Source: Candidatus Bathyarchaeota archaeon (GTDB lineage: Archaea; Thermoproteota; Bathyarchaeia; Bathyarchaeales; Bathycorpusculaceae). From it: a stretch of 64,000 nt of DNA. The DNA is taken from contig CAWDYC010000007.1 of assembly GCA_963806535.1 (NCBI GenBank), positions 160,001 through 224,000 of the forward strand, given 5' to 3'. Each line of letters opens with the position of its first letter. Position 1 is the first letter of the stretch. The notes beneath the pieces were generated by a model. The model saw only the letters and a list, made by a program, of their open reading frames with translations. It searched no databases and was not told the origin of the DNA. Below, one piece after another: positions 26,276 through 36,965 of this stretch. The position numbers were made by a program, and so were the translations under genes.

Positions 26276-27389
26276 GTGCCTAAAAATTACACTTACACAG
26301 ATGCAGGCGTAAACCGCAAACAACGAGTTGAATCAAAAAAGGCGCTAAAAAACCTGAAAGAGACTTACAGGTACAGCCGTTTTGGCGGCGTCATGCATCT
26401 GCCTTACGGCAACATTTTTCCAATCTCAGAAAACTTGTTTTTAGACCTTGAAATCGAAGGAGTAGGCACCAAAGTTCTCTTAGCGCAATTAGCCCAGAAA
26501 TATGACACAATAGGCATTGATGCGGTTGCAATGGTTGTTAACGATGTAATTCGATCAGGAGCTAAACCACTTGCAATTGCAGACAACATTCACGCTCAAG
26601 AAAGCAACCCCGAGCTTGTAAAAGAGTGGCTGAAAGGAATTATTCAAGGCGCAGCCGAATCTGAATGCCCAGTTACCAATGGAGAAACAGGTGACGTATC
26701 TGAAATAATAAAGGGCTTAACCGAAAAAGTTGGATTCGACATGGTTGTGGCTTCAGTGGGGCAGGTTGAAAGAAAAGAGATCATAACTGGAGAAAACATC
26801 AAGCCGGGTGACCCAATCATCGGTTTGGCCAGTAGCGGATTGCATAGTAATGGCATAACAATGGCAAGAAAAATCCTCTTCAAACAATGGGGAGGAAAAT
26901 ACTTACCTAACGATAAACCAGCAGGCTTAGATCGCGAAATAGTTCTTGAAGCTCTTGAACCCACAAAAATCTACGTTAAACCCTTACTCAAACTTGCCAG
27001 CGAAGTAAAAGTCAAAGCAGCCGTCCACATAACAGGTGATGCATACATGAAATTCAACAACCTTGCAACAGTCTCGCCAGGAATAGGTTTCGAATTCAAC
27101 AACTTCAAACCCCAACCCATTTTCGGCTTAATTCAAAAAACAGCTAGCGAAATTAGGATTCACTGTCACTGATGAGGAAATGTTCAAAACTTTTAACATG
27201 GGCTGGGGATTCGGTATAATCGTTGACAAAACAGAAATCGACAAAGCCATGAACACGCTTGAGCAAGACAGCATAAAACCTGAGGTAATAGGCAAAGTAA
27301 CCGACAAACAGACAGTGGAAATAAAATATCAAGAACAAAAAGATGGTTTTAACGTAAAGTTTTGCTTTTTTTATGACGAAAGTGTTTAA
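26276..27389 (+). CDS. purM: AIR synthetase (frameshift near 27165; 3' end uncertain)
   Basis: YTDAGV, EGVGTK, NGETG, SSGLHSNG, HITG and MFKTFNMGWG. Confidence 0.93.
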
Positions 27390-27415: not shown

Positions 27416-27667
27416 ATGAAATACTGCGCTAAAATAGAGGTCAGTCTTAAACCAGGCCATAGCAACCCTGAAGGAGAAACAACCGCCCATTTACTAAAAG
27501 AACTCGGCTACAAAGTAGAAACAGTTGACGTGAGCAAACTTTATACTGTCACTCTTGAGGCATCATCAGTTAAAGAAGCCAAGGCAAAAGCAGAAGACAT
27601 GAGCAAACGTCTTTTAGCAAACCCAACCAAAGACAATTACACCATAAATGTTGAGGAGCAGAAATGA
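27416..27667 (+). CDS. purS: FGAM synthase subunit PurS
   Basis: VSLKPG..NPEG and RLLANP. Confidence 0.93.
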   Translation: MKYCAKIEVSLKPGHSNPEGETTAHLLKELGYKVETVDVSKLYTVTLEASSVKEAKAKAEDMSKRLLANPTKDNYTINVEEQK

Positions 27668-30047
27668 ACGCTAACCTCTACATCCACCGCAAAGCAGACT
27701 ATACACTCTACGAAGCGGATTTAGCCAAAGCCACAGACCAACAGCTAATCGAAATCAGCAATGAGTTAGCTTTGGGTCTTAAGCTTAGATGAAATGAAAA
27801 GTATTCAAACCTACTTCAAAGCGGAAGACAGAAACCCAACAGATGTTGAATTGCAAACCATCAGTCAAACATGGTCAGAACACTGCTACCACAAAACCTT
27901 CAAAGGAAAAATTCTCTTAGACGGTAAAGAAATCGACAGTTTATTCAAAACCTACATTGCAAAAGCAACAAAAGAAATCAAAGCGCCATGGTGTTTTAGC
28001 GTCTTTGAAGATAACGCAGGTATTGTAAAATTTGATAAAGGGCTATGGTATCGCAGCGAAAGTTGAAACCCACAATCACCCATCTGCCGTTGAACCTTTC
28101 GGCGGGGCAGCTACAGGTGTTGGCGGCGTAATTCGAGATATCCTTGGAGTGTGGGCTGACCCAATAGCTTGCACAGATGTTTTAGGTTTCGGACCATTAG
28201 ATTACGATTATAACAAGTTGCCTGCAGGTGTTAAACATCCAAAATACGTCTACATGGGTGTCACTGCGGGCATCAGCGCTTATGGAAACAACATGGGCAT
28301 CCCAACCGTTAACGGAGCCATATACTTTGACGAAAGCTACACAGGCAACGTCACCGTATACTGTGGATGCATTGGTCTTTTACCACTAAACAAATTTACA
28401 AAAAACGCAAAACCAGAACACATAATTGTTATTGCAGGAGGCAAAACAGGACGTGACGGTATTCACGGTGTAACTTTCGCCTCAGCTGAATTAACTGAGA
28501 AATCGGAAGAAATTTCTCGACCAGCCGTCCAAATTGCCGACCCAATCGAAGAAGAGAAGGTCAAACGGGCAATCGTTGAAATCCGCGATTTGCAATTGGC
28601 TTCTGCAACAACTGACCTTGGCGGAGGCGGCTTATCCTCAGCCATCGGCGAAACTGCAGAAAAATTCGATTGCGGAGTAACCATTGAACTTGCTAAGGTG
28701 CCGTTGAAGTATCAGGGTTTGGCTCCTTGGGAAATTTACATTTCAGAATCACAGGAAAGAATGCTCATAACCGTGCCCCCAGAAAACCTGGAACGAGTTA
28801 TGGCAGTTTTTGAAAAAGAAGACGTAGAAGCCACAGCGATAGGCAAACTAACCACAGAACGCCGCCTACAGCTGAACTTTAACGGCGAAAAAGTTGCCGA
28901 TATGGATATGGCTTTTCTGTTTACTCCATGCAAAAGCATGAAAGTTGCAACCATTGAAAAGCAAACTTGCACTGAACCACAGTTTCCTGAACCACAGAAC
29001 CTAACAGAAACTCTTATGCAGCTTCTTTCTGCACCAAATATTGCAAGTAAAGAAAGCGTCATCCGCACTTATGACCATGAAGTCAAAGGCAACACAGCCC
29101 TTAAGCCGCTGCAGGGAGAGTACGCTGGACCAAACGATGCTGCTGTGCTAAAACCGCTGGATGATTCATGGAAAGGCTTGGCAATTTCTTGCGGTATGAA
29201 CCCGAATTATGGAAAGATTGATGCTTACTGGATGGCTGCTTCAGCAATTGACGAGGCAGTTAGAAACAACATTGCCGTGGGCGGCAGAAGAATTGCTCTG
29301 CTGGATAATTTTACATGGGGGAATCCTGAGAAGCCAGAACGCCTCGGCTCATTAGTAAGAGCCTGTGAAGCATGCTACGACTTTGCAACTGCTTTTAGGA
29401 CACCGTTTATCTCGGGAAAAGACAGCCTCTACAACGAGTCTCCACTTGGTCCAGTCACACCGACACTTCTAATCACCGCAGTAGGCGTAATTCCAAACCT
29501 TCAATCAACAACCTCTATGGATTTGAAAGCACCAGGCAACCTACTCTACATCATCGGAGAAACGTTCAATGAACTTGGCGGTTCAGAATACTACAAACTC
29601 AAAGGCTACTTAGGCGCAAGCGTACCCAAAGTCAAAGGTGCAAAAGCCAAACGCACATTCAAAGCAGTAACCAAAGCCATCGATTTAGGCTTAATCAAAT
29701 CTTGCCATGACCTCTCTGAAGGAGGATTAGCTGTGGCGGCGGCAGAGATGGCGTTTGCAGGCGGCTATGGGTTGGAGCTGGATTTAGGTAAAGTCCCTGG
29801 CAAAGAGTTAGAGCGCAATGATTTTGTGTTGTTTTCTGAATCAAACAGCCGCTTCCTTTTGGAAGTCGCAGAAAATGATAAGAAAGAATTTGAGGCTTTG
29901 ATGAAAGGCAAAGGCTGTGCCCTAATTGGGAAAGTAACCAAAGAAGAGAAACTGCTTATTCATGGATTAAACCAAAAAATAGTGGTCGATGCTTCACTTG
30001 CCGAACTACGACACGCTTGGAAGAAAACGTTAAGCGGAGAATCCTAA
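27664..30047 (+). CDS. purL: FGAM synthase subunit PurL (frameshifts near 27780 and 28035)
   Basis: QTWSEHCYHKTF, KVETHNHPSAVEPFGGAATGVGG, SESQERM and SGKDSLYNE. Confidence 0.95.
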
Positions 30048-30869
30048 ATGAATCAGCAAGAAATCAAAGTTTGCGTTATGCGTGTCGGCGGAACCAACTG
30101 CGATGCAGAGACTCAGCGGGCTTTTCTTGAGTTAGGCGTTCAAGCGGAAACTTTGCATGTTAACGAATTAATAAAACGCAGAAACCTGTTGGATTATCAG
30201 GTTCTTGGTTTTTCCAGGTGGCTTCTCATTTGGAGATTACGTACGTTCAGGCGTGATTTTTGCAAGACATCTCTCAGCCAAATTGGGCAAAGAAATGGAA
30301 ACGTTCATTGACGAAGGCAGACCAATTCTGGGCATTTGCAACGGCTTCCAAATAATGGTTGAATATGGTTTGCTCCCGGGCTTGGAAGGAGTGAGCACCT
30401 ATCCCGAAGCAACATTAACCAATAATGAACCAGCTGGGTTCAAATGCAAATGGATTTACCTGAAACAGGAAAATAAAGGAAAATGTATTTTTACAAACAA
30501 AATTCCAGTGGGCAAAGTGCTTCAAGATGCCTATTGCCCATGGAGAAGGCAGATTATTGTTTCCCAAGGAAAAAGAAAAGGAAATACTTTCAAAACTAAT
30601 TGATAATGACATGGTTGTTTTCCGTTACTGCGACAAAAACGGCAACATCAGCAAACGGCGAATACCCAGCTAACCCGAACGGCTCAACCTTTGACATTGC
30701 AGGCATATGCAACAAGGAAGGAAACATTTTCGGTTTAATGCCTCACCCAGAGAGGGCAATGTACTGGTGGCAACAACCCAATTGGACCCGCGAGCAACAG
30801 ATGCTACAGTACGGCGACGGAAAACTAATTTTCCAAAGCATAATTGATAATCTAATAAAGAAATGCTAA
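30048..30869 (+). CDS. purQ: FGAM synthase glutaminase PurQ (frameshifts)
   Basis: [27 protein letters not shown] and GLMPHPER across three ORFs. Confidence 0.95.
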
Positions 30870-31766
30870 ATCCTTAGCATAAGGCAAGCCTGCACGGGCA
30901 CCCATCGCCGTAACGCTTCTTGAAGCCACAAAATTCGCTATCTGTCCACATTCGTAGAGGCTTTTTTTGTTGATTAAGCCATAGAGGAAACCTGCGCAGA
31001 AAGCGTCGCCAGCACCTGTCGTGTCGACTGCTTTAACTTTGAAGGGTTCTACTTTGAGCTGTTCTTCACCGTCTGTGACGTAGCAGCCTTTGTCGCCAAG
31101 TTTAACTGCGACAATTTTAACGCCTAACCCAATCATTAAATCGGCGCCTTTGCGGTAATCTGTTTCGCCAGTTAAAAGTTCAAGTTCAAAAGCGTTAGGC
31201 ATCAAAACGTAAGTGCTGCGGATTATTGGTTCTATCGCTGCAAATCCTTTCTGTGCATACACCGAGCCTGGGTCAAAGCTGATTTTAACTTCGTTGGGCA
31301 ATGCGGCTAAGAGTTTTTTTTGTGCGCGAAAAGATTTTTCTCCAACAAATGAGGAGAAATGCACAAATTTTGTTTGAGAAAGATAGCCGTAATTGATTTC
31401 TCGGGGTTCGATTGTGTCGTTGACGCCTGAGTTGATGTATAGTGCTCTTGCACCTTTCTTGTCTACGAAGCCCATTACTGAACCGCTTTTGCCTTTCGTT
31501 GCCTGAATGATGCCGCTGGTGTCGACGCCTTCTTTGCTGAAACAGTCAATTTGCAGTTTGCCTTCTCGGTCGTTGGCTACTTTTCCTATGAAACCTGTTT
31601 TGCAGCCTAGCCTTGCCAATCCAACTATCGTGTTTGCTGCTGAGCCACCGCAGGCTTCAGTGTAATCTTCGATGAAGCTTTCTTCTTCTGCTCCTGCAAG
31701 CTTTTGCACTTTGAATAGCATGTCAACGTTGAGTGCGCCAAAACCGACTACATCAAATTTCGTCAT
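30852..31766 (-). CDS. PfkB/ribokinase-family kinase (EhaT-like)
   Basis: GGSAANT, SFDPG and [10 protein letters not shown]; ATGA overlap with the upstream formyltransferase gene. Confidence 0.9.
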
Positions 31767-32678
31767 TGAAACAATTCCTTTAATGGGATTTTATATTCAC
31801 CTAGTTTACCGCCGTAGTTACCAGCGGAAACCTTCACTACACCATCGATGCTTAAAACGGCTTCGATACCAACTTTAGTAGCTTTTTTAACTACGTCTAA
31901 TGAGACACCATCATAGACTATTTCCGCTATGTACTCCACTCCTTCGGGAACAAGAGATTCTTTGCCAAGCCGTTTCTTAAGAGAAGGACAATAAAGATGA
32001 TTGGTTGTTGGACCGATCTTGGGAAAATGCGTTTCTGGCTTAGAGCCTGCAGAGCACACATCAAATGGCGTAACAACACCCTCGACATTGTGAATTGCGG
32101 CTAAGGCTTTTTCTCCTGCCAAGTTTCAGAGCTTGTTTGTTTCTGCACATAACCCAGAAGTTGCCGCCCATAACGCCCTCGACCATAACCAAGATAACGC
32201 TCAATAATGAAATCTGGAACCATCAAGGGAACAACGATGACTTCTCGTTCATGACGTGTTTCAATCCATTCATAACCATCGCCACAGTGACCAACAGTCT
32301 CCATCATATCTAATTTGCCTTCAGCATTTGGCAACGCATCGTAAACAGCGGTGAAAGGCTTAACCAAGAATGTCTTGGCGGATGCGGTAGGAAAGTTCAG
32401 TTTCAAACTTTTTTAGCGATTGCTCGAAGGTTTTTTTCGGGTTTATTTCTCCCCAGAACTGCAGTATTGCACCTGACGTTTGTCAATCGTTTCCTGCTGG
32501 AAACAGATATTTTTCCACTCCGCCTTCGGTTCTGCCGATAACAACAGATGGCGTCGCGGTTGAGTCTTCAGCAGCTTTTCGTAATGTTTCGTCATTTTCT
32601 GCCGTAATGATTACTCTGCAGAAGAGCCCAGTGAACGCTTCAGCGAAACGTATCTTCAATTTCTGCTTTTTTTGGCAT
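31763..32678 (-). CDS. formylmethanofuran:H4MPT formyltransferase paralogue (EhaS/Ftr-II type; several indels)
   Basis: Reconstructed [59 protein letters not shown] and [10 protein letters not shown]; TAATG overlap with the upstream gene. Confidence 0.88.
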
Positions 32679-33762
32679 TATCCAAGTCTCCCAATGGCTA
32701 CTCCTCGAACTTTTTTTCTAAATTCGCTACTTTCTTTGGCGACTGATTCCATATTTTGAGCTGTTACTATTTGAGCTTTAGGCAAAGCATTAGGATACAC
32801 AGCTGAAAGCTGTTTAAGCAAAACAGGATCCACTTCGCTATATTCGAGTGCTGGAAAACCCCAAGACTGCAGAGCGTTGATTGCAACTTCTTTCCCAAAC
32901 TTAGAGAACAAATCTGCAATAACTGCAGTTACCAGGTTGCTTTCTGAGAGAACAGCCACTTCTGCATTCTTGACTGCATAGCTGTTACCGTTGAAAGATA
33001 CTGTTAAGCCGCCGTTGTCACGGACCAGTTTGAAGGCTTCAACATCTGTTATGCTGTCGCCTACATACATTACATCTGCTAAATCTGCGCCCAAACGCTT
33101 CACCACATCTCGGATTGCCTCAGCTTTTTGTTCCCCGCCAACCGTCACCACATCAATTAGGAATTTTCCAACAAACATTCTTGGGAATTTCGCTCCAGAA
33201 AATCTCGTCCAAACGCTGAATAACAGCTTGGTCACTGTGCGAAAAATCTTCAATTGCTCGTTGCAGCTTTGGGAATTTCAATTAAATGCATTTGTGAGAT
33301 TTCTTGAGCAATTTTTCTTAGTTGGTCTTTTTCTTGCGGAGTGATAGCGCATTTGTCGAGGCTGACTTTGGTGCAGTACGTGTTTTTGTATGGGAATTCG
33401 ATGGCTTTGCAAAGGGCTTTGATATAGTGTTGGTAACTGGTGCTGACAATGAAAGCTTCAGCTATGGCTTGCACGTGGTGCAGGGTGTTTCTGCTGTTAG
33501 CGATTAAAATAATGTTGTTCTCGGAAAACGCATCCATCTGCCTATCAGTTACACCGTACGCTTTAAAGAAAGGCAAAATAAGCTTCAAAGTGCTTCCTGC
33601 AGAGTAACCGGGTTTTCGCAGAATATCTGCCAGCACATCATCATATTTGCTGATGTTAGCGAAAAGTGCGTCGCCGTTTGGAATAAAATTTGCAGCTAAC
33701 TCAAACGCGTTGTCGTTTTTTGAGATTGGTCCTTCACAGTCAGATATGAAGATGCGCTTCAC
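32678..33762 (-). CDS. HAD-like hydrolase, EhaR/COG4030 type (frameshift near 33255)
   Basis: FISDCEGPISKNDNAFEL, ISKYDD, IVSTSY, YVGDSITD and SFNGN; GTGA overlap with the purD stop. Confidence 0.85.
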
Positions 33763-35174
33763 ACTTTGTGCCTCAAATTCTCCATGTGTTTTACGCTTTT
33801 TGCAATGTGCTGTTTTGAGGCGATGTCTGTTCGGTTCCATAATGCGCCGCCTGTTATTGCTTTGGCGCCTTCTTGGCTGATTTGGCGGGCTTCCTCAATG
33901 CTTTTGCCGATGCCTAAAATTCCTATTGCACGAGATTTTAAGGCGTAGTTTTTGCCGTTTTTTGTTTCCATTGAACCGGGGTAAATTCGGATGTTTTTGC
34001 CGTATTTTTTGGTTAATGCGTAAGCTTTTGAGAGGTCAACTGGCGAGTTAAGTGCTGATTTGTCGACTTGTCTGGGGAACACTTCTGCGTAGCCGCCATA
34101 GTCGGGCGGAACCTTGTAGGTTAAGACTGATGCTGCCTTTTCCAATTCGACAGTTGCCAAATTTCCTTCAATCATTCGGAAGCATAAGTCGACAAAGTCG
34201 CCTTTGATTAGATGCAAGAAGGTTAATTATTTCTGGGTCTCCAGGTCGACTGTTGTTTTCGAGAACTTTGATGCCCTTGCCAGTGTGCATAAATGCTAAG
34301 TAAAGAGGTACACCTCTTAGCGCGGAGGCATCTTTGATTTTTGCGCTCCAACCCTTGAAAATTTTGTTAGCTAACAAAAGCTCCTGTTCACGTTCTGCGG
34401 CGGTCAAGAAAGGTAATTTGTCGTCAGTGTCTTTGTATGAGCCCATTCCGCCTGTGTTTGGACCTTTATCATCGTCGAAAGCGCGTTTGTAGTCACGTGT
34501 ATCGGGCAACGGAATGAAGTGTTTGCCGTCGCAGAAAGCCATGAAACTTGATTCTTCTCCGTCAATCTTTTCCTCAATAATGACTGAGCCATATTGGAAG
34601 TTGGACATGAAATGCTCAAAAAGTTGTTCTCGATTGGCAAAGTGGTCTCCCCAGACGCCAACACCTTTTCCCAGAGCGGGCTTATCGGGCTTAACTACAG
34701 CCTGATTATCTAATTCATCTAGCCAACGGTAAACATCGGCTTTAACGTCTGCAGCCTTTGTAATCGGCTGGGTTAAAAACTTTGAAGCGTGGATTAGCTT
34801 CTGGTGCAATCTCATCAAAAAGCACTCGCTGCTCAACTTTGCTGACTTCTATAGCGTACTGTTGCTTTGGACAAATAACAGGTATACCTGTGCGTTTCTC
34901 AACTTGGTCGCGGACGCCTTCAATTATGGGTTTTTCTGAGCCGACTAAAGCAAAACTGATTTTGTCTCTTGTTTGCCTCTGCGAATTTGCAGATTTCCTC
35001 CACATCCAAGTTCGGGATGACAACGTGTTTGGCAGCTTTTTCCGCGTTGAATGGGTTGCGTTGTTTGTCAGCGATGTAGAGTTCAACTTGATATTTTTTG
35101 CTTTGCAGAAGCGCATCAACCATAGCGACTTCTCTTGCACCATAAGAAACAACCAGTACACCTATTTTTTCCAT
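33759..35174 (-). CDS. purD: phosphoribosylamine-glycine ligase (several frameshifts)
   Basis: SYGARE, LGKGV, IEEKIDGEE, DYKRAFDDDKGPNTGGMGSY and NSRPGDPE. Confidence 0.93.
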
Positions 35175-35235
35175 TAGAGACACACCCTTATGCAAAGAAA
35201 ATAGAAGGGTTGCTTAATTTGCTTTGCCACCGCAG

Positions 35236-36718
35236 TTACGGCTGAACTTCTTCCGACTCATAGATTCTTGATTTTTCTTGATATCCAGCTAAGAATCTTT
35301 GTTTCATTGCGTCAGCCATTTTTTGTGCGCAAGGCGTTGGATACTCTCCGTTGATGCAGGCTAAGCAAAGTTGGTCTTTTGTTTGACCTGTTGCTTTCAC
35401 TAATGCTTCAATGGATTGGTAGCATACGCCGTCTGCACCTATGATTTTAGCTATTCCTTCTGCATCATGTCTTGAACCGACAAGTTGCCCATACGTTGAC
35501 ATGTCAATTCCGTATAAGCATGGACCGATAATTCGTGGAAAAGTAACAAAGACGTAGACTTTTTTGGCGCCTGCCTTTCGCAATTTATCAATTATTACTT
35601 TGGTTGTGTCTCCTCTAACTATGCTGTCTTCAGTTACGATAACTCGTTTTCCATCAACTTTGGAGCCTAAAATGTTAATTTTCTTATCAATAGTGGAAAA
35701 GCGCTCGACGTTTAGCAGAATGAAAGCTCGCTCTGTAACATAGCGGTGCCGTCTTGACGCCCGTTCCCATCTCAAACCAGACGCTTCATGAACACCCATC
35801 GCTGAGTCGTCTCCTGTTTCAGGCACTGAAAGAATAATGTCACTTTCCTTTACGACTTCAGGATTTTCTTTTACGATGTTTCTTCCGAAATCTTCTCGAA
35901 TTTCATAAACGTATTTGCCGTTGAACCTTGAATCAGGCCTTGCAAAATAAGCATATTCAAAAGCGCAGAAAGCTGGGCGAGGATTTTGTATAATTTGGAT
36001 GCGTTTGAAGCCGTCTTTTGAAACGGTTACGAGTTCGCCTGGTTTTAATTCAAAATCTCTTACAAAACTGTTCATGTCCAAGCCTACAGTTTCAGAGGAA
36101 AAAGCAAAAGTTTTAGCAACTGGGTCATGCCCAGCGCATAACGGTTTTATTCCATGTGGGTCTTTGAAAGCGAAAAAGTCGCCTTCTCCAGTTATGCCTG
36201 TTACGGAGAATGCGCCGTCTAAACTTTCCATAACCTCTTTGGCTGCAGACGGCAGGTCTTTGCCTTGTTTTAGGGCTAAGAGCATTTTGTTACATACAAT
36301 GTCAGAATCGCAGCTGTAAGTAAAATCTGGAAAGTTTTGAGTACATTTCTTTTTTCAGCGGCAGGGTGTTAACGATGTTGCCGTTAAATGAGAGAGCAAG
36401 TTTTATGCCATTTACTTGGGCAACGACTGGTTGGGTGCCCTCTATTATGGAGACATCGTCGCATTTGCCTGAGGTTGTGTACCTTACGTTGCCGATGCCT
36501 ATTGATCCAGGCAGACGGCCAAACCATTCTTTTATGGCGTCATTTTTTACTTTAGGAACTAAATCCAAGTTTTTGTAGGTAAAAAATTGTTTATCACTAT
36601 AAGTAAGAAATCCGTGCGATTGGTGCCCTCGATGGTTTTGAGCACGTAACCCCCAATAAACATATGGAAAGACAGGTTGATTTTCATAGTTTATTGCGCC
36701 AAAGATACCACAGCCCAT
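35236..36718 (-). CDS. purF: amidophosphoribosyltransferase (frameshift near 36320)
   Basis: MGCGIFG, NHRG, GNVRYTT, CAFEYAYFARPDS, DSIVRGDT, PCLYGID and LCLAC. Confidence 0.95.
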
Positions 36719-36965
36719 TTTGGTTCCTTCCCGCGTAATTATGCATGTACTTACAGAAGGGGTTTATCAGCTTTTTGTACATATTTTAGCTAAAAACATG
36801 GGATTTTTGACATAATACAACTTAAACTACAAGAAAAGAATCTTGCACAATTTGAAAAGTATTTAGCTATCGAAAACTTCCGCTTTTGTTTAAGTTTGTT
36901 AATTTTTTTGTTTTGCTGATTTCGTTGATAAAACAGGGACAGAATTTTGGATTTAATTTAGAAAG

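What the first reader, a model, noticed from the sequence alone, without database searches (positions are those of the whole stretch)
30852..36718. EhaR-EhaS-EhaT module inside the purine operon: candidate non-PurN/PurT GAR formylation system
Seen: purF and purD are followed by a HAD hydrolase, an Ftr paralogue and a PfkB kinase. The last four genes are joined by overlapping stop/start codons (GTGA at 33759-62, TAATG at 32676-80, ATGA at 31763-66). They converge on purM-purS-purL-purQ. The 11-kb cluster therefore holds steps 1, 2, 4 and 5 of de novo purine synthesis. Step 3 (GAR to FGAR) is the only gap, and a formyltransferase sits right there. Knowledge, from recall: the same triad forms the unexplained tail (ehaR, ehaS, ehaT) of the Methanothermobacter eha hydrogenase operon, and several H4MPT-using archaea lack recognisable PurN/PurT. 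The Ftr here carries ATPSVVIGR and RIRQDILVKPFT rather than the canonical Ftr TSVIMCPAEAG and RIGQCVLT-type motifs, so it looks like a separate subfamily. No hydrogenase genes are present in the window. Inference: EhaS formylates the primary amine of GAR, which resembles the aminomethyl acceptor of methanofuran, using formyl-H4MPT or formyl-MFR. This may run as a detour in which EhaR dephosphorylates GAR, EhaS formylates the riboside and EhaT re-phosphorylates it to FGAR.
Basis: partly seen in the sequence, partly recalled or inferred. Interest (0 to 1): 0.93.

Follow-up and report, generated by a model that had tools for sequence, protein, structure and literature searches.

The report
Candidate third GAR formylation system
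A phosphatase, a formyltransferase paralogue and a ribokinase-like kinase sit inside the purine operon of archaea that lack both known enzymes for step 3 of purine synthesis, and they probably carry out that step.

Summary
The gene order is real: purF-purD-EhaR(HAD)-Ftr2(EhaS)-EhaT(PfkB) on the minus strand converges on purM-purS-purL-purQ. In this Bathyarchaeia assembly every one of these genes except the kinase and purS is broken by one-base insertions. Relatives and outside contigs lack them, so they are most likely assembly errors.

- The genome (91.75% complete) has no PurN or PurT. It has a separate canonical Ftr, FwdA and two PurP.
- purD lies beside EhaR in 67 of 67 Bathyarchaeia loci, and Ftr2 follows in 60 of 69.
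- Among 29 sampled Bathyarchaeia, 24 have EhaR+Ftr2 and 2 have EhaR plus a divergent PurN' placed right after purD. Two have a PurT-like gene and neither EhaR nor EhaT. One has no purD and none of these.
- Two Asgard genomes carry purF-purD-EhaR-Ftr2-EhaT-purL-purQ on one strand.
- PurN'-EhaR fusion proteins exist.

Against: canonical PurN co-occurs in 3 of 12 Asgard genomes, Ftr2 is often unlinked there, and nothing is biochemically shown.

I put 0.65 on Ftr2 being the step-3 formyltransferase and 0.4 on the phosphatase/kinase riboside detour. My searches found no paper that makes this link.

The parts
26276..27172 (+). purM (AIR synthetase, step 5). The frame as assembled is 298 aa and is probably cut short.
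   Evidence: The best PDB matches are phosphoribosylformylglycinamidine cyclo-ligases, E 1e-49.
27416..27667 (+). purS (83 aa)
   Evidence: PDB matches are MTH169, MJ1593 and PurS, E 8e-13.
27794..30047 (+). purL (step 4), broken near 28037 by a one-base insertion
   Evidence: 97% identical over 669 aa to the intact 793-aa gene of G013. The indel is listed.
30048..30869 (+). purQ (step 4, glutaminase subunit), in three frames
   Evidence: The pieces match the intact 271-aa purQ of G013 at 81-89%. Insertions lie at 30207, 30521 and 30650.
30852..31766 (-). EhaT-like PfkB/ribokinase-family kinase, 304 aa. It is the only intact gene of the five on the minus strand. Its ATG overlaps the Ftr2 stop (ATGA).
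   Evidence: Pfam PfkB 180.6 bits. Ribokinase TIGR02152 scores 172 bits, below its cut-off of 299.65. The GAGDAF motif is at 30999-31016. The nearest solved structures are ribokinases.
31763..32678 (-). Ftr2 (EhaS-like paralogue of formylmethanofuran:H4MPT formyltransferase), in at least three frames as assembled
   Evidence: FTR and FTR_C domains are found on the pieces. The intact 302-aa orthologue in G013 scores NF002554 337.7 bits (over its cut-off) and TIGR03119 241 bits (below 292.6). It falls in the Ftr2 clade.
32678..33762 (-). EhaR-like HAD-superfamily protein (about 360 aa), with two one-base insertions near 33180 and 33254. Its GTG start overlaps the purD stop (GTGA).
   Evidence: HAD Pfam matches. 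Homologues are named 'energy-converting hydrogenase A subunit R' by JGI. It matches PDB 1Y8A (AF1437) at E 5.5e-31. DCEGP is at 33727-33741.
33759..35174 (-). purD (GAR synthetase, step 2), in four frames as assembled
   Evidence: GARS_N, GARS_A and GARS_C are found on the pieces. The pieces are 89-95% identical to the intact 475-aa frame of G013.
35236..36718 (-). purF (amidophosphoribosyltransferase, step 1), broken near 36341
   Evidence: TIGR01134 matches both pieces. The pieces are 96-98% identical to the intact 493-aa gene of G013.

Best explanation
EhaR-Ftr2-EhaT is a purine-pathway module that turns GAR into FGAR (step 3) in organisms that have neither PurN nor PurT.

Proposed course:
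1. PurD makes GAR.
2. EhaR, a HAD-type phosphatase translationally coupled to purD, removes the 5'-phosphate.
3. Ftr2, a paralogue of formylmethanofuran:H4MPT formyltransferase, moves a formyl group from formyl-methanofuran or N5-formyl-H4MPT onto the glycinamide amine of the riboside.
4. EhaT, a ribokinase-type kinase, restores the 5'-phosphate to give FGAR for PurLQS.

The net cost is one ATP, the same as PurT. The two irreversible steps would pull a near-isoenergetic amide-to-amide formyl transfer in one direction.

Shown here: gene identities, synteny, phyletic pattern, replacement in place, and fusion proteins. Inferred: every catalytic step, the donor, the acceptor and the order of the steps.

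My odds: Ftr2 is the step-3 formyltransferase in some form, 0.65. The full detour as written, 0.4.
For: 1. The gap is real. The genome is 91.75% complete. It has no PurN, no PurT (best 38.2 bits against a cut-off of 502) and no PurH. It does have FwdA at 800 bits, a canonical Ftr1 and two PurP. C1 units are therefore on MFR/H4MPT, and the second formylation step is covered.

2. Synteny in Bathyarchaeia. purF-purD-EhaR-Ftr2-PfkB is found in 10 of 10 relatives, contiguous in 9. Over 80 species loci, purD lies within 3 kb upstream of EhaR in 67 of 67 loci with enough flank, and directly adjacent in 62. Ftr2 lies downstream in 60 of 69, and Ftr2+PfkB in 57 of 69.

3. Phyletic pattern in 29 Bathyarchaeia of a 201-genome phylum sample.
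- 24 have EhaR+Ftr2 and no PurN/PurT.
- 2 (G065, G096) have EhaR and EhaT but no Ftr2. A divergent PurN' sits immediately after purF-purD, where the triad sits elsewhere.
- 2 (G032, G140) have a full-length PurT-like gene (239-245 bits) and neither EhaR, Ftr2 nor EhaT.
- 1 (G025, 98% complete) has no purD and none of them.
- EhaR was found in 0 of 172 other Thermoproteota.

4. Independent phylum. In 121 Asgard genomes, 20 have EhaR and all 20 have an Ftr2-type gene. Four have Ftr2 only, none has EhaR only and 97 have neither. Two genomes carry purF-purD-EhaR-Ftr2-EhaT-purL-purQ on one strand, which puts the triad at the pathway position of step 3. Three more carry purQ-purL-purF-purD-EhaR-EhaT-purE-purB-purM-purP.

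5. Fusion proteins. PurN'-EhaR fusions fall in 3 clusters (P0188, P0271, P0272; 2+11+33 member sequences). The N-domain is 53% identical to the Bathyarchaeial PurN'. After AF1437, its best solved relatives are GAR transformylases.

6. Enzyme features.
- Ftr2 is a separate clade from Ftr1 (100/100).
- Ftr2 keeps the Glu of the EIV motif that aligns with solved Ftrs.
- EhaR keeps HAD motifs III and IV (K213, GDSITD).
- EhaT keeps GAGD.

7. Literature.
- GAR formyltransferase is unidentified in Archaeoglobi, Methanobacteriales and M. kandleri (Brown 2011, PMC3261824, passages).
- Ftr2 occurs in ANME-1, Archaeoglobales, M. kandleri and Methanothermobacter, and ANME-1 lacks PurN and PurT (Chadwick 2022, PMC9012536, passages).
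- Those authors do not connect the two observations in the passages I saw.
Against: - No enzyme activity, metabolite or mutant phenotype is known.
- Exclusion is imperfect. Canonical PurN (214-223 bits) co-occurs with EhaR and Ftr2 in 3 of 12 Asgard genomes, and PurN fragments appear in a fourth. Chadwick 2022 reports Ftr2 in ANME-2a/2b, which have PurN.
- Ftr2 is unlinked to pur genes in 8 of the 10 Asgard genomes whose Ftr2 context I read. It is not near EhaR in 9 of 69 Bathyarchaeia loci.
- Four Asgard genomes have an Ftr2-type gene but no EhaR at E<=1e-20.
- In Methanothermobacter the triad is cotranscribed with a hydrogenase, not with pur genes (Kaster 2011).
- Formate is regarded as the purine C1 source in Methanothermobacter (PMC10579436, passages). 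Brown 2011 calls the labelling data inconsistent and doubts formyl-H4MPT as a donor. An ATP/formate ligase is therefore still possible.
- EhaR and EhaT also accompany PurN', next to FolD. There the donor would be activated 10-formyl-H4F, so the thermodynamic rationale for the detour does not generalise.
- EhaR's motif I is DxE, not DxD.
- A dephosphorylate/rephosphorylate detour has no precedent that I know of in de novo purine synthesis.
- Several Thermoproteota families lack PurN, PurT and EhaR alike. I did not test them for purD.
Confidence: 0.4

Rival explanations
1. Ftr2 formylates GAR itself, the 5'-phosphate form, and is the missing step-3 enzyme. EhaR and EhaT do something else in the same pathway. 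Examples are clearing or recycling dephosphorylated intermediates, supplying ribose 5-phosphate, or controlling flux.
For: All the synteny, phyletic and replacement evidence fits this reading equally well. Ftr2 stands apart from EhaR-EhaT in Asgard types B and C. It avoids an ATP-wasting detour.
Against: EhaR and EhaT travel with the transferase-type enzymes (Ftr2 or PurN') and are both missing from the PurT-type genomes. EhaR is fused to PurN'. A phosphatase and a 5-OH-type kinase flanking the transferase are most simply read as consecutive steps on one riboside.
Confidence: 0.25
2. Step 3 is done by a still unrecognised formate- and ATP-dependent ligase, for instance one of the two tandem PurP paralogues. 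The triad has another purine-associated role.
For: Two PurP genes lie in tandem on C5. Formate is held to be the purine C1 source in Methanothermobacter. Brown 2011 raises a formate-using unknown enzyme.
Against: Methanobacteriales lack PurN/PurT but have a single PurP (Brown 2011, passages). PurP duplication also occurs in PurT-bearing Sulfolobales. This reading does not explain the replacement of the triad by PurN' in place, nor the co-loss with purD.
Confidence: 0.12
3. The triad belongs to MFR/H4MPT one-carbon or cofactor metabolism, or is an accessory of Eha hydrogenase. Its place beside pur genes reflects co-regulation only.
For: The genes are cotranscribed with eha in Methanothermobacter. 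Ftr2 is a close structural relative of a C1-pathway enzyme. Ftr2 is unlinked in many Asgard genomes.
Against: There is no hydrogenase in the window or next to the module. The module is lost together with purD while Ftr1 stays (G025). EhaR/EhaT persist with PurN' and FolD where Ftr2 is gone. EhaR-EhaT sit inside an 11-gene purine operon.
Confidence: 0.06
4. In this particular genome the cluster is a set of decaying pseudogenes, and the organism imports purines.
For: As assembled, purF, purD, EhaR, Ftr2, purQ and purL all carry frame breaks.
Against: The breaks are almost all +1 insertions (18 against 2 deletions). They are spread over the whole assembly. They are absent from G013 and from contigs of 4 other runs at 7 shared sites. 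Protein identity to G013 stays at 81-98% on both sides of the breaks.
Confidence: 0.03

Closest known systems
PurN (10-formyl-H4F:GAR transformylase)
   Same: Same proposed pathway step. A divergent PurN' occupies the triad's place after purF-purD in two Bathyarchaeia genomes and is fused to EhaR in other organisms.
   Different: The fold is unrelated to Ftr2 and the enzyme depends on folate. No PurN is found in this genome. Canonical PurN needs no phosphatase or kinase partner.
PurT (formate- and ATP-dependent GAR transformylase)
   Same: Same step and the same net ATP cost as the proposed detour. It excludes EhaR, Ftr2 and EhaT within the sampled Bathyarchaeia.
   Different: It is an ATP-grasp ligase that uses free formate. 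It is absent here.
Canonical Ftr / FhcD (formylmethanofuran:H4MPT formyltransferase)
   Same: Same two-domain architecture (FTR + FTR_C). Matches solved Ftrs at E 5e-52 to 1e-47. The Glu of the EIV motif is conserved.
   Different: Only 35-43% identical to the Ftr1 of the same genomes. It forms a separate clade with 100/100 support and scores below the TIGR03119 equivalog cut-off. It has different motifs ([21 protein letters not shown]) and a short insertion, and it is linked to pur genes rather than C1 genes.
EhaR-EhaS-EhaT at the end of the Methanothermobacter eha operon
   Same: The same three families in the same order. Homologues of the HAD protein carry the EhaR name. [quoted passage not shown]
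   Different: Here, and in Asgard archaea, they lie in purine operons with no hydrogenase. I could not fetch Methanothermobacter DNA, so orthology rests on source names and on the literature.
Riboside kinases of the PfkB family (ribokinase; adenosine kinase, which phosphorylates AICA riboside - recalled, from no call)
   Same: EhaT is nearest to ribokinases and also matches an adenosine kinase among solved structures. It has the GAGD motif.
   Different: It scores below every NCBIfam equivalog cut-off, and its substrate is unknown.

Membership tests
Ftr family (Pfam FTR + FTR_C; NCBIfam NF002554 subfamily) | Both domains present, and score over the subfamily cut-off | tested here: met
   The intact orthologue in G013 scores FTR 147 bits, FTR_C 185 bits and NF002554 337.7 bits against a cut-off of 297. 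The window's pieces carry both domains.
Canonical Ftr (TIGR03119 equivalog, fhcD/ftr) | Score over the equivalog cut-off, and orthology to the C1-pathway Ftr | tested here: not met
   It scores 241.4 bits against a cut-off of 292.6. It is 35-43% identical to the Ftr1 of the same genomes. Ftr2 and Ftr1 are split by one branch with 100/100 support.
Ftr family | Conserved active-site Glu. Its role as a protonated oxyanion stabiliser is stated for FhcD Glu252 in PMC6926001; the equivalence of positions is my own reading of the alignment. | tested here: met
   E251 is invariant in 11 of 11 Ftr2 sequences. It aligns with the Glu of YEIVING in 1M5H and 1M5S.
EhaR ('energy-converting hydrogenase A subunit R') | Sequence homology to proteins that carry that name | tested here: met
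   JGI gives the name to many hits of 59-62% identity. An Atlas cluster named EhaR comes from Methanobacteriota.
EhaR as a hydrogenase subunit | Encoded with, or part of, an Eha hydrogenase | tested here: not met
   The only Complex1_49kDa match in the genome is on C8. The neighbours in 90 Bathyarchaeia loci and in the Asgard loci are pur genes.
HAD-superfamily phosphatase | Motifs I (DxD), II (S/T), III (K) and IV (GDxxxD) | tested here: inconclusive
   Motif I reads DxEGP, with Glu in place of the second Asp. STSY, K213 and GDSITD are conserved. Pfam HAD matches are at or just over their cut-offs. Activity was not tested.
PfkB / ribokinase family | PfkB domain and the GAGD anion-hole motif | tested here: met
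   PfkB scores 180.6 bits, and GAGDAF is at 30999-31016.
Ribokinase proper (TIGR02152 equivalog) | Score over the equivalog cut-off | tested here: not met
   It scores 172.3 bits against a cut-off of 299.65.
GAR transformylase (by function) | Forms FGAR from GAR | not testable with these tools
   Only genomic context supports it: position between purD and purL, exclusion of PurT, and replacement by PurN'.

The most novel reading that the evidence does not exclude
Step 3 of purine synthesis runs in many archaea, and probably some bacteria, through a riboside bypass. A dedicated phosphatase (EhaR) and kinase (EhaT) bracket an interchangeable formyltransferase: Ftr2 on MFR/H4MPT-bound formate, or PurN' on folate. 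This would fill the gap left open since the first methanogen genomes for Methanobacteriales, Archaeoglobi, Methanopyrus, ANME-1, Bathyarchaeia and part of the Asgard archaea. It would also explain why ehaRST rides on the operon of the anaplerotic hydrogenase Eha: the hydrogenase refills the formyl-methanofuran that purine synthesis drains.
Probability: 0.35. Interest if true: 0.92.

Novelty: new variant of a known kind. Interest (0 to 1): 0.85.

Why it matters
The enzyme for GAR formylation is a named, unfilled hole in archaeal metabolism. Brown 2011 lists seven species without it, and Chadwick 2022 repeats the point for ANME-1, Archaeoglobales and Methanobacteriales. This finding gives a concrete three-gene candidate with clear, cheap tests.

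If it is right:
- It adds a third, unrelated enzyme family for a universal reaction.
- It links anabolic C1 supply directly to the methanofuran/H4MPT pool.
- It reassigns three 'hydrogenase subunits'.
- It corrects automatic annotations that call Ftr2 a methanogenesis or Wood-Ljungdahl enzyme and so inflate inferred C1 pathways in MAGs.
- It improves metabolic models of methanogens, ANME, Bathyarchaeia and Asgard archaea.

Tried and rejected
- Complex prediction on two copies of Ftr2 plus EhaR, both as alignments, gave no verdict (score 0.00; controls not run). I draw nothing from it.
- ATP-grasp-EhaR fusions. P0215 and P0227 have a weak PurT-like stretch (33 bits), which looked like a third fusion type. 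The one locus I found (L122) has a restriction methylase, a UvrD helicase, a SIR2-domain protein and AcnX around it, and no pur gene or kinase. I do not use these fusions as support.
- Phosphate loop of PurN'. I compared the N-terminal loop of PurN' (GWFSxGRDxAAR) with canonical SGxGSN to see whether a phosphate site is lost. The loop differs but keeps two Arg. The role of that loop in binding GAR phosphate is recalled only, so I draw no conclusion.
- Thermodynamic pull. I considered that low-energy formyl donors are the reason for the detour. EhaR/EhaT also accompany PurN' next to FolD, so this is at best part of the answer.
- Other phyla. The genome-contig scan returned only Bathyarchaeia-labelled records, plus one labelled Thorarchaeota. 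The genome search can be centred only on handles I already had. I therefore could not examine Methanobacteriota, Archaeoglobi, ANME-1, Thermoplasmatota or Thermodesulfobacteriota genomes. For those I rely on passages of papers and on source names.
- Stand-alone Ftr2. Its neighbours in Asgard genomes gave no purine-related Pfam match.
- Sequencing runs. The runs found hold only about 0.1 of the sampled words. I used them solely for the indel check and make no claim about habitat.
- Literature. None of the following searches found a paper proposing Ftr2/EhaS for GAR formylation or a riboside route in microbes: ehaS/ehaT/ehaR; purine/archaea/GAR/formyltransferase/PurT; Ftr2/formyltransferase/purine; Bathyarchaeota/purine/formylmethanofuran; glycinamide ribonucleotide/methanofuran/H4MPT; AF1437; glycinamide riboside and variants. 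Subscription journals are mostly not held.
- Supplements. Brown 2011 Additional file 1, Chadwick 2022 S2 Data and the Adam 2022 supplement may list or discuss these genes.

Full report
What is in the window. On the minus strand, 36718 to 30852 holds purF, purD, a HAD-type gene, a paralogue of formylmethanofuran:H4MPT formyltransferase (FTR + FTR_C) and a PfkB kinase. They converge on purM, purS, purL and purQ on the plus strand.

The Ftr paralogue is in at least three frames, the HAD gene in two, purD in four, purF in two and purQ in three, and purL is cut near its start. One of the quoted motifs, RIRQDILVKPFT, is split by an extra base.

Are the breaks real? Against the closest relative (G013, proteins 81-98% identical), positions 28000-36800 carry 18 one-base insertions in the window and only 2 one-base deletions. 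Contigs from four other metagenome runs, all from relatives at about 88-99% likeness, lack the extra base at 7 of the same sites. All 10 relatives examined have intact genes of normal length. Long ORFs cover 0.61 of the window against 0.69-0.89 of the relatives' loci, and other contigs of the assembly look the same. I read this as an assembly with systematic +1 errors, not as gene decay. All functional work was done on the separate pieces or on intact orthologues.

Who it is and what else the genome has. Source names of close homologues place the organism in Bathyarchaeia. The genome is 2.95 Mb in 12 contigs and 91.75% complete.
- It has no PurN by NCBIfam or Pfam.
- It has no PurT; the best ATP-grasp hit scores 38 bits against a cut-off of 502.
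- It has no PurH.
- It has a canonical Ftr on another contig, FwdA at 800 bits and two tandem PurP.
- Its only group-4 hydrogenase large subunit is on contig C8.

One-carbon units are therefore carried on methanofuran/H4MPT. The second purine formylation is covered by PurP, and step 3 has no known enzyme.

The three genes.
- The HAD protein is the family that JGI names 'energy-converting hydrogenase A subunit R'. An Atlas cluster of that name comes from Methanobacteriota. Its solved relative is the uncharacterised AF1437 of Archaeoglobus fulgidus (1Y8A, E 5.5e-31). It keeps HAD motifs II-IV, but motif I reads DxEGP.
- The Ftr paralogue (Ftr2) passes the Ftr subfamily model but not the equivalog model. 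It keeps the Glu of the EIV motif. It is only 35-43% identical to the Ftr1 of the same genomes.
- In a tree of 38 sequences (21 Ftr2 and 17 Ftr1, from Bathyarchaeia and Asgard archaea) the two are split by one branch with 100/100 support, and both phyla appear on each side. The labels came from synteny and BLAST, so the tree confirms a bipartition rather than discovering one.
- The kinase is ribokinase-like but below every equivalog cut-off.
- Kaster 2011 (PMC3087415, passages) states that EhaS and EhaT of Methanothermobacter were annotated as Ftr and ribokinase and are cotranscribed with eha.

Synteny in Bathyarchaeia. purF-purD-EhaR-Ftr2-PfkB is present in 10 of 10 relatives from 7 families. 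It is contiguous in 9, and purL-purQ converge within the locus in 8. In 80 species-level loci, purD lies within 3 kb upstream of EhaR in 67 of 67 with enough flank, and directly adjacent in 62. Ftr2 follows in 60 of 69, and Ftr2 plus the kinase in 57 of 69. I searched five genomes whose EhaR locus has no Ftr2 beside it. They have 3, 2, 2, 1 and 0 Ftr-family matches elsewhere, and no PurN or PurT.

Phyletic pattern. In an even sample of 201 Thermoproteota genomes at least 85% complete, EhaR is found in 26 of the 29 Bathyarchaeia and in 0 of 172 others. Crossing this with PurN, PurT, Ftr2, purD and EhaT gives four groups:
- 24 genomes, counting the window's own, have EhaR and Ftr2 and neither PurN nor PurT.
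- 2 genomes (family f13) have EhaR and EhaT but no Ftr2.
- 2 genomes (family f12, genus g24) have a full-length PurT-like gene (239-245 bits) and no EhaR, no Ftr2 and no EhaT. A sister genus in the same family carries the full purF-purD-EhaR-Ftr2-EhaT cluster (L128).
- 1 genome (98% complete) has no purD and none of the others, although it keeps Ftr1.

The kin are not independent, and the counts are small.

Replacement in place, and fusion. In the two f13 genomes a divergent PurN-like gene (PurN', 278-299 aa, TIGR00639 73-77 bits against a cut-off of 150) sits immediately after purF-purD, exactly where the triad sits in the other lineages. EhaR and EhaT lie together elsewhere, with EhaT overlapping folD. 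The same PurN' (53% identity over 255 aa) forms the N-terminal half of proteins whose C-terminal half is EhaR. These fall in three 90%-identity clusters with 2, 11 and 33 member sequences. After AF1437, the nearest solved relatives of that half are GAR transformylases. PurN' is a large family whose named members come from Thermoplasmata, Aerophobetes, Thermodesulfobacteriota and other bacteria, and named EhaR homologues come from Aerophobetes and Thermodesulfobacteria too (an Atlas cluster adds Thermoplasmatota). In four cases a PurN' hit and an EhaR hit report the same longest-contig length (33498, 5265, 17967, 9711). This hints that they share a contig, which I could not check.

Independent phylum. 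In 121 Asgard genomes, 20 have EhaR and all 20 also have an Ftr2-type gene. Four have Ftr2 only, none has EhaR only and 97 have neither. I read the EhaR locus of 12 of them:
- Two genomes carry purF-purD-EhaR-Ftr2-EhaT-purL-purQ on one strand. The gene order follows the pathway, with the triad at step 3.
- Four small genomes carry purQ-purL-purF-(purD)-EhaR-EhaT-purE-purB-purM-purP. The purD gene is present in 3 of the 4. I named the genes from purE onward by Pfam in one of them (L143). Ftr2 lies elsewhere in the two I checked.
- Five of six larger genomes have purD, a HEAT-repeat gene and a divergent EhaR in a row. Again Ftr2 lies elsewhere.

None of the 12 has PurT. Three of the six larger genomes also have a canonical PurN, and a fourth has PurN fragments.

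Reading. The phosphatase and the kinase behave as purine-operon genes in two phyla. They travel with a transferase-type formyltransferase (Ftr2 or PurN'), vanish together where PurT is present, and vanish with purD. Ftr2 and PurN' occupy the same slot after purD. The simplest account is that the module performs GAR to FGAR.

A phosphatase and a furanose-5-OH-type kinase on either side of the transferase, and a phosphatase fused to it, suggest that the transferase works on the dephosphorylated riboside. It costs one ATP, like PurT. With formyl-MFR or N5-formyl-H4MPT as donor it would give direction to a near-isoenergetic transfer: PMC6926001 gives +4.4 kJ/mol for formyl-H4MPT to methylofuran. 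The same pair also accompanies PurN' beside FolD, so energetics cannot be the whole reason. I hold the detour at 0.4 and the broader claim, that Ftr2 is the step-3 enzyme, at 0.65.

The eha linkage in Methanobacteriales fits. Eha is described as an anaplerotic hydrogenase that feeds CO2 reduction to formyl-methanofuran (Adam 2022, PMC9635834, abstract and passages). A biosynthetic drain on that pool could sensibly be co-expressed with it. This is inference.

Literature.
- Brown 2011 (PMC3261824, passages) could not find purN or purT in two Archaeoglobi, four species it calls Methanomicrobiales (those it names are Methanobacteriales) and M. kandleri.
- Chadwick 2022 (PMC9012536, passages) places Ftr2 in ANME-1, ANME-2a/2b, Archaeoglobales, M. 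kandleri and Methanothermobacter. It notes separately that ANME-1, Archaeoglobales and Methanobacteriales lack both PurN and PurT and must have an unidentified enzyme. The two statements are not connected in the passages I saw.
- Seven searches found no paper making the link (listed under Tried and rejected).

What counts against it.
- There are no biochemical data.
- Canonical PurN co-occurs in some Asgard genomes, and Ftr2 and PurN are both reported in ANME-2a/2b.
- Ftr2 is often unlinked to pur genes outside Bathyarchaeia.
- Four Asgard genomes have Ftr2 without a detectable EhaR.
- Formate is regarded as the purine C1 source in Methanothermobacter, and formyl-H4MPT has been doubted as a donor.
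- Motif I of EhaR is unusual.
- ATP-grasp-EhaR fusions sit in a context unrelated to purines.
- Several Thermoproteota families lack all the candidates and were not tested for purD.

I could not reach genomes of Methanobacteriota, Halobacteriota, Thermoplasmatota or the bacterial carriers.

Noticed in passing
L124:2798-3634 (-), L126:7922-8821 (-); proteins P0188, P0271, P0272, P0389-P0508: PurN' is a distinct PurN-like subfamily of about 270-300 aa. Its N-terminal loop reads GWFSxGRDxAAR where canonical PurN has SGxGSN, and it has two insertions. The NxHP and DxGP motifs are kept. It scores 73-77 bits against TIGR00639 (cut-off 150) but is named PurN by JGI. It is found in archaea and bacteria and is fused to EhaR in three clusters.
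   Followed up: partly
L122:10001-12895 (+); proteins P0215, P0227: Proteins of 899-964 aa join a divergent PurT/PurK-like ATP-grasp domain to an EhaR domain. The one locus found lies among a restriction methylase, a UvrD helicase, a SIR2-domain protein and AcnX, with no pur genes. Their function is unexplained.
   Followed up: partly
purD of L033, L027, L124 and L128, compared with G032:C2:189455-190804 and G140:C1:22788-24137: PurD scores 223-258 bits against TIGR00877 (cut-off 288) in the four EhaR-bearing genomes whose purD I scored (L033, L027, L124, L128). It scores 370-376 bits in the two PurT-type Bathyarchaeia. This could be a partner-specific PurD subfamily, or simply lateral origin of the PurT-type set.
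   Followed up: no
whole assembly G000 (contigs C1-C12); window 1-64000: ORFs of at least 150 aa cover only 0.44-0.78 of the first 200 kb of each contig. This fits frame-breaking +1 insertions throughout the assembly. Gene calls and pseudogene counts from this genome will be unreliable.
   Followed up: partly
G000:C5:192407-194046 (+): Two PurP (formate-dependent AICAR formyltransferase family) genes lie in tandem. No PurH is present. The role of the second copy is unknown.
   Followed up: no
L143:3714-16096 (+), with the same order in L142 and L146: Small Asgard genomes (1.3-1.4 Mb) hold an 11-gene purine operon: purQ-purL-purF-purD-EhaR-EhaT-purE-purB-purM-purP-GATase. The genes from purE onward were named by Pfam only in L143.
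   Followed up: partly
L139:9126-9611 (+), and the same position in L137, L138, L140 and L141: In larger Asgard genomes a HEAT-repeat protein of 160-166 aa is conserved between purD and a divergent EhaR. The HEAT assignment was tested only in L139.
   Followed up: no
L123:4384-6292 (-), L125:4721-6635 (-): In Bathyarchaeia family f13 the EhaT-like kinase overlaps folD (334.9 bits for the L123 gene). This ties the phosphatase/kinase pair to a folate-type formyl supply in those genomes.
   Followed up: partly
window 30851/30852 compared with L027:8417-8647: G013 has 249 bp between the ends of purQ and the kinase gene. The window lacks these, so the two convergent genes overlap by 18 bp (30852-30869).
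   Followed up: no
PMC3087415, sections 18 and 19: Kaster 2011 calls the Ftr-like eha gene EhaS in one passage and EhaT in another. Brown 2011 writes 'Methanomicrobiales' where the species it lists are Methanobacteriales. Both slips can mislead text mining.
   Followed up: no
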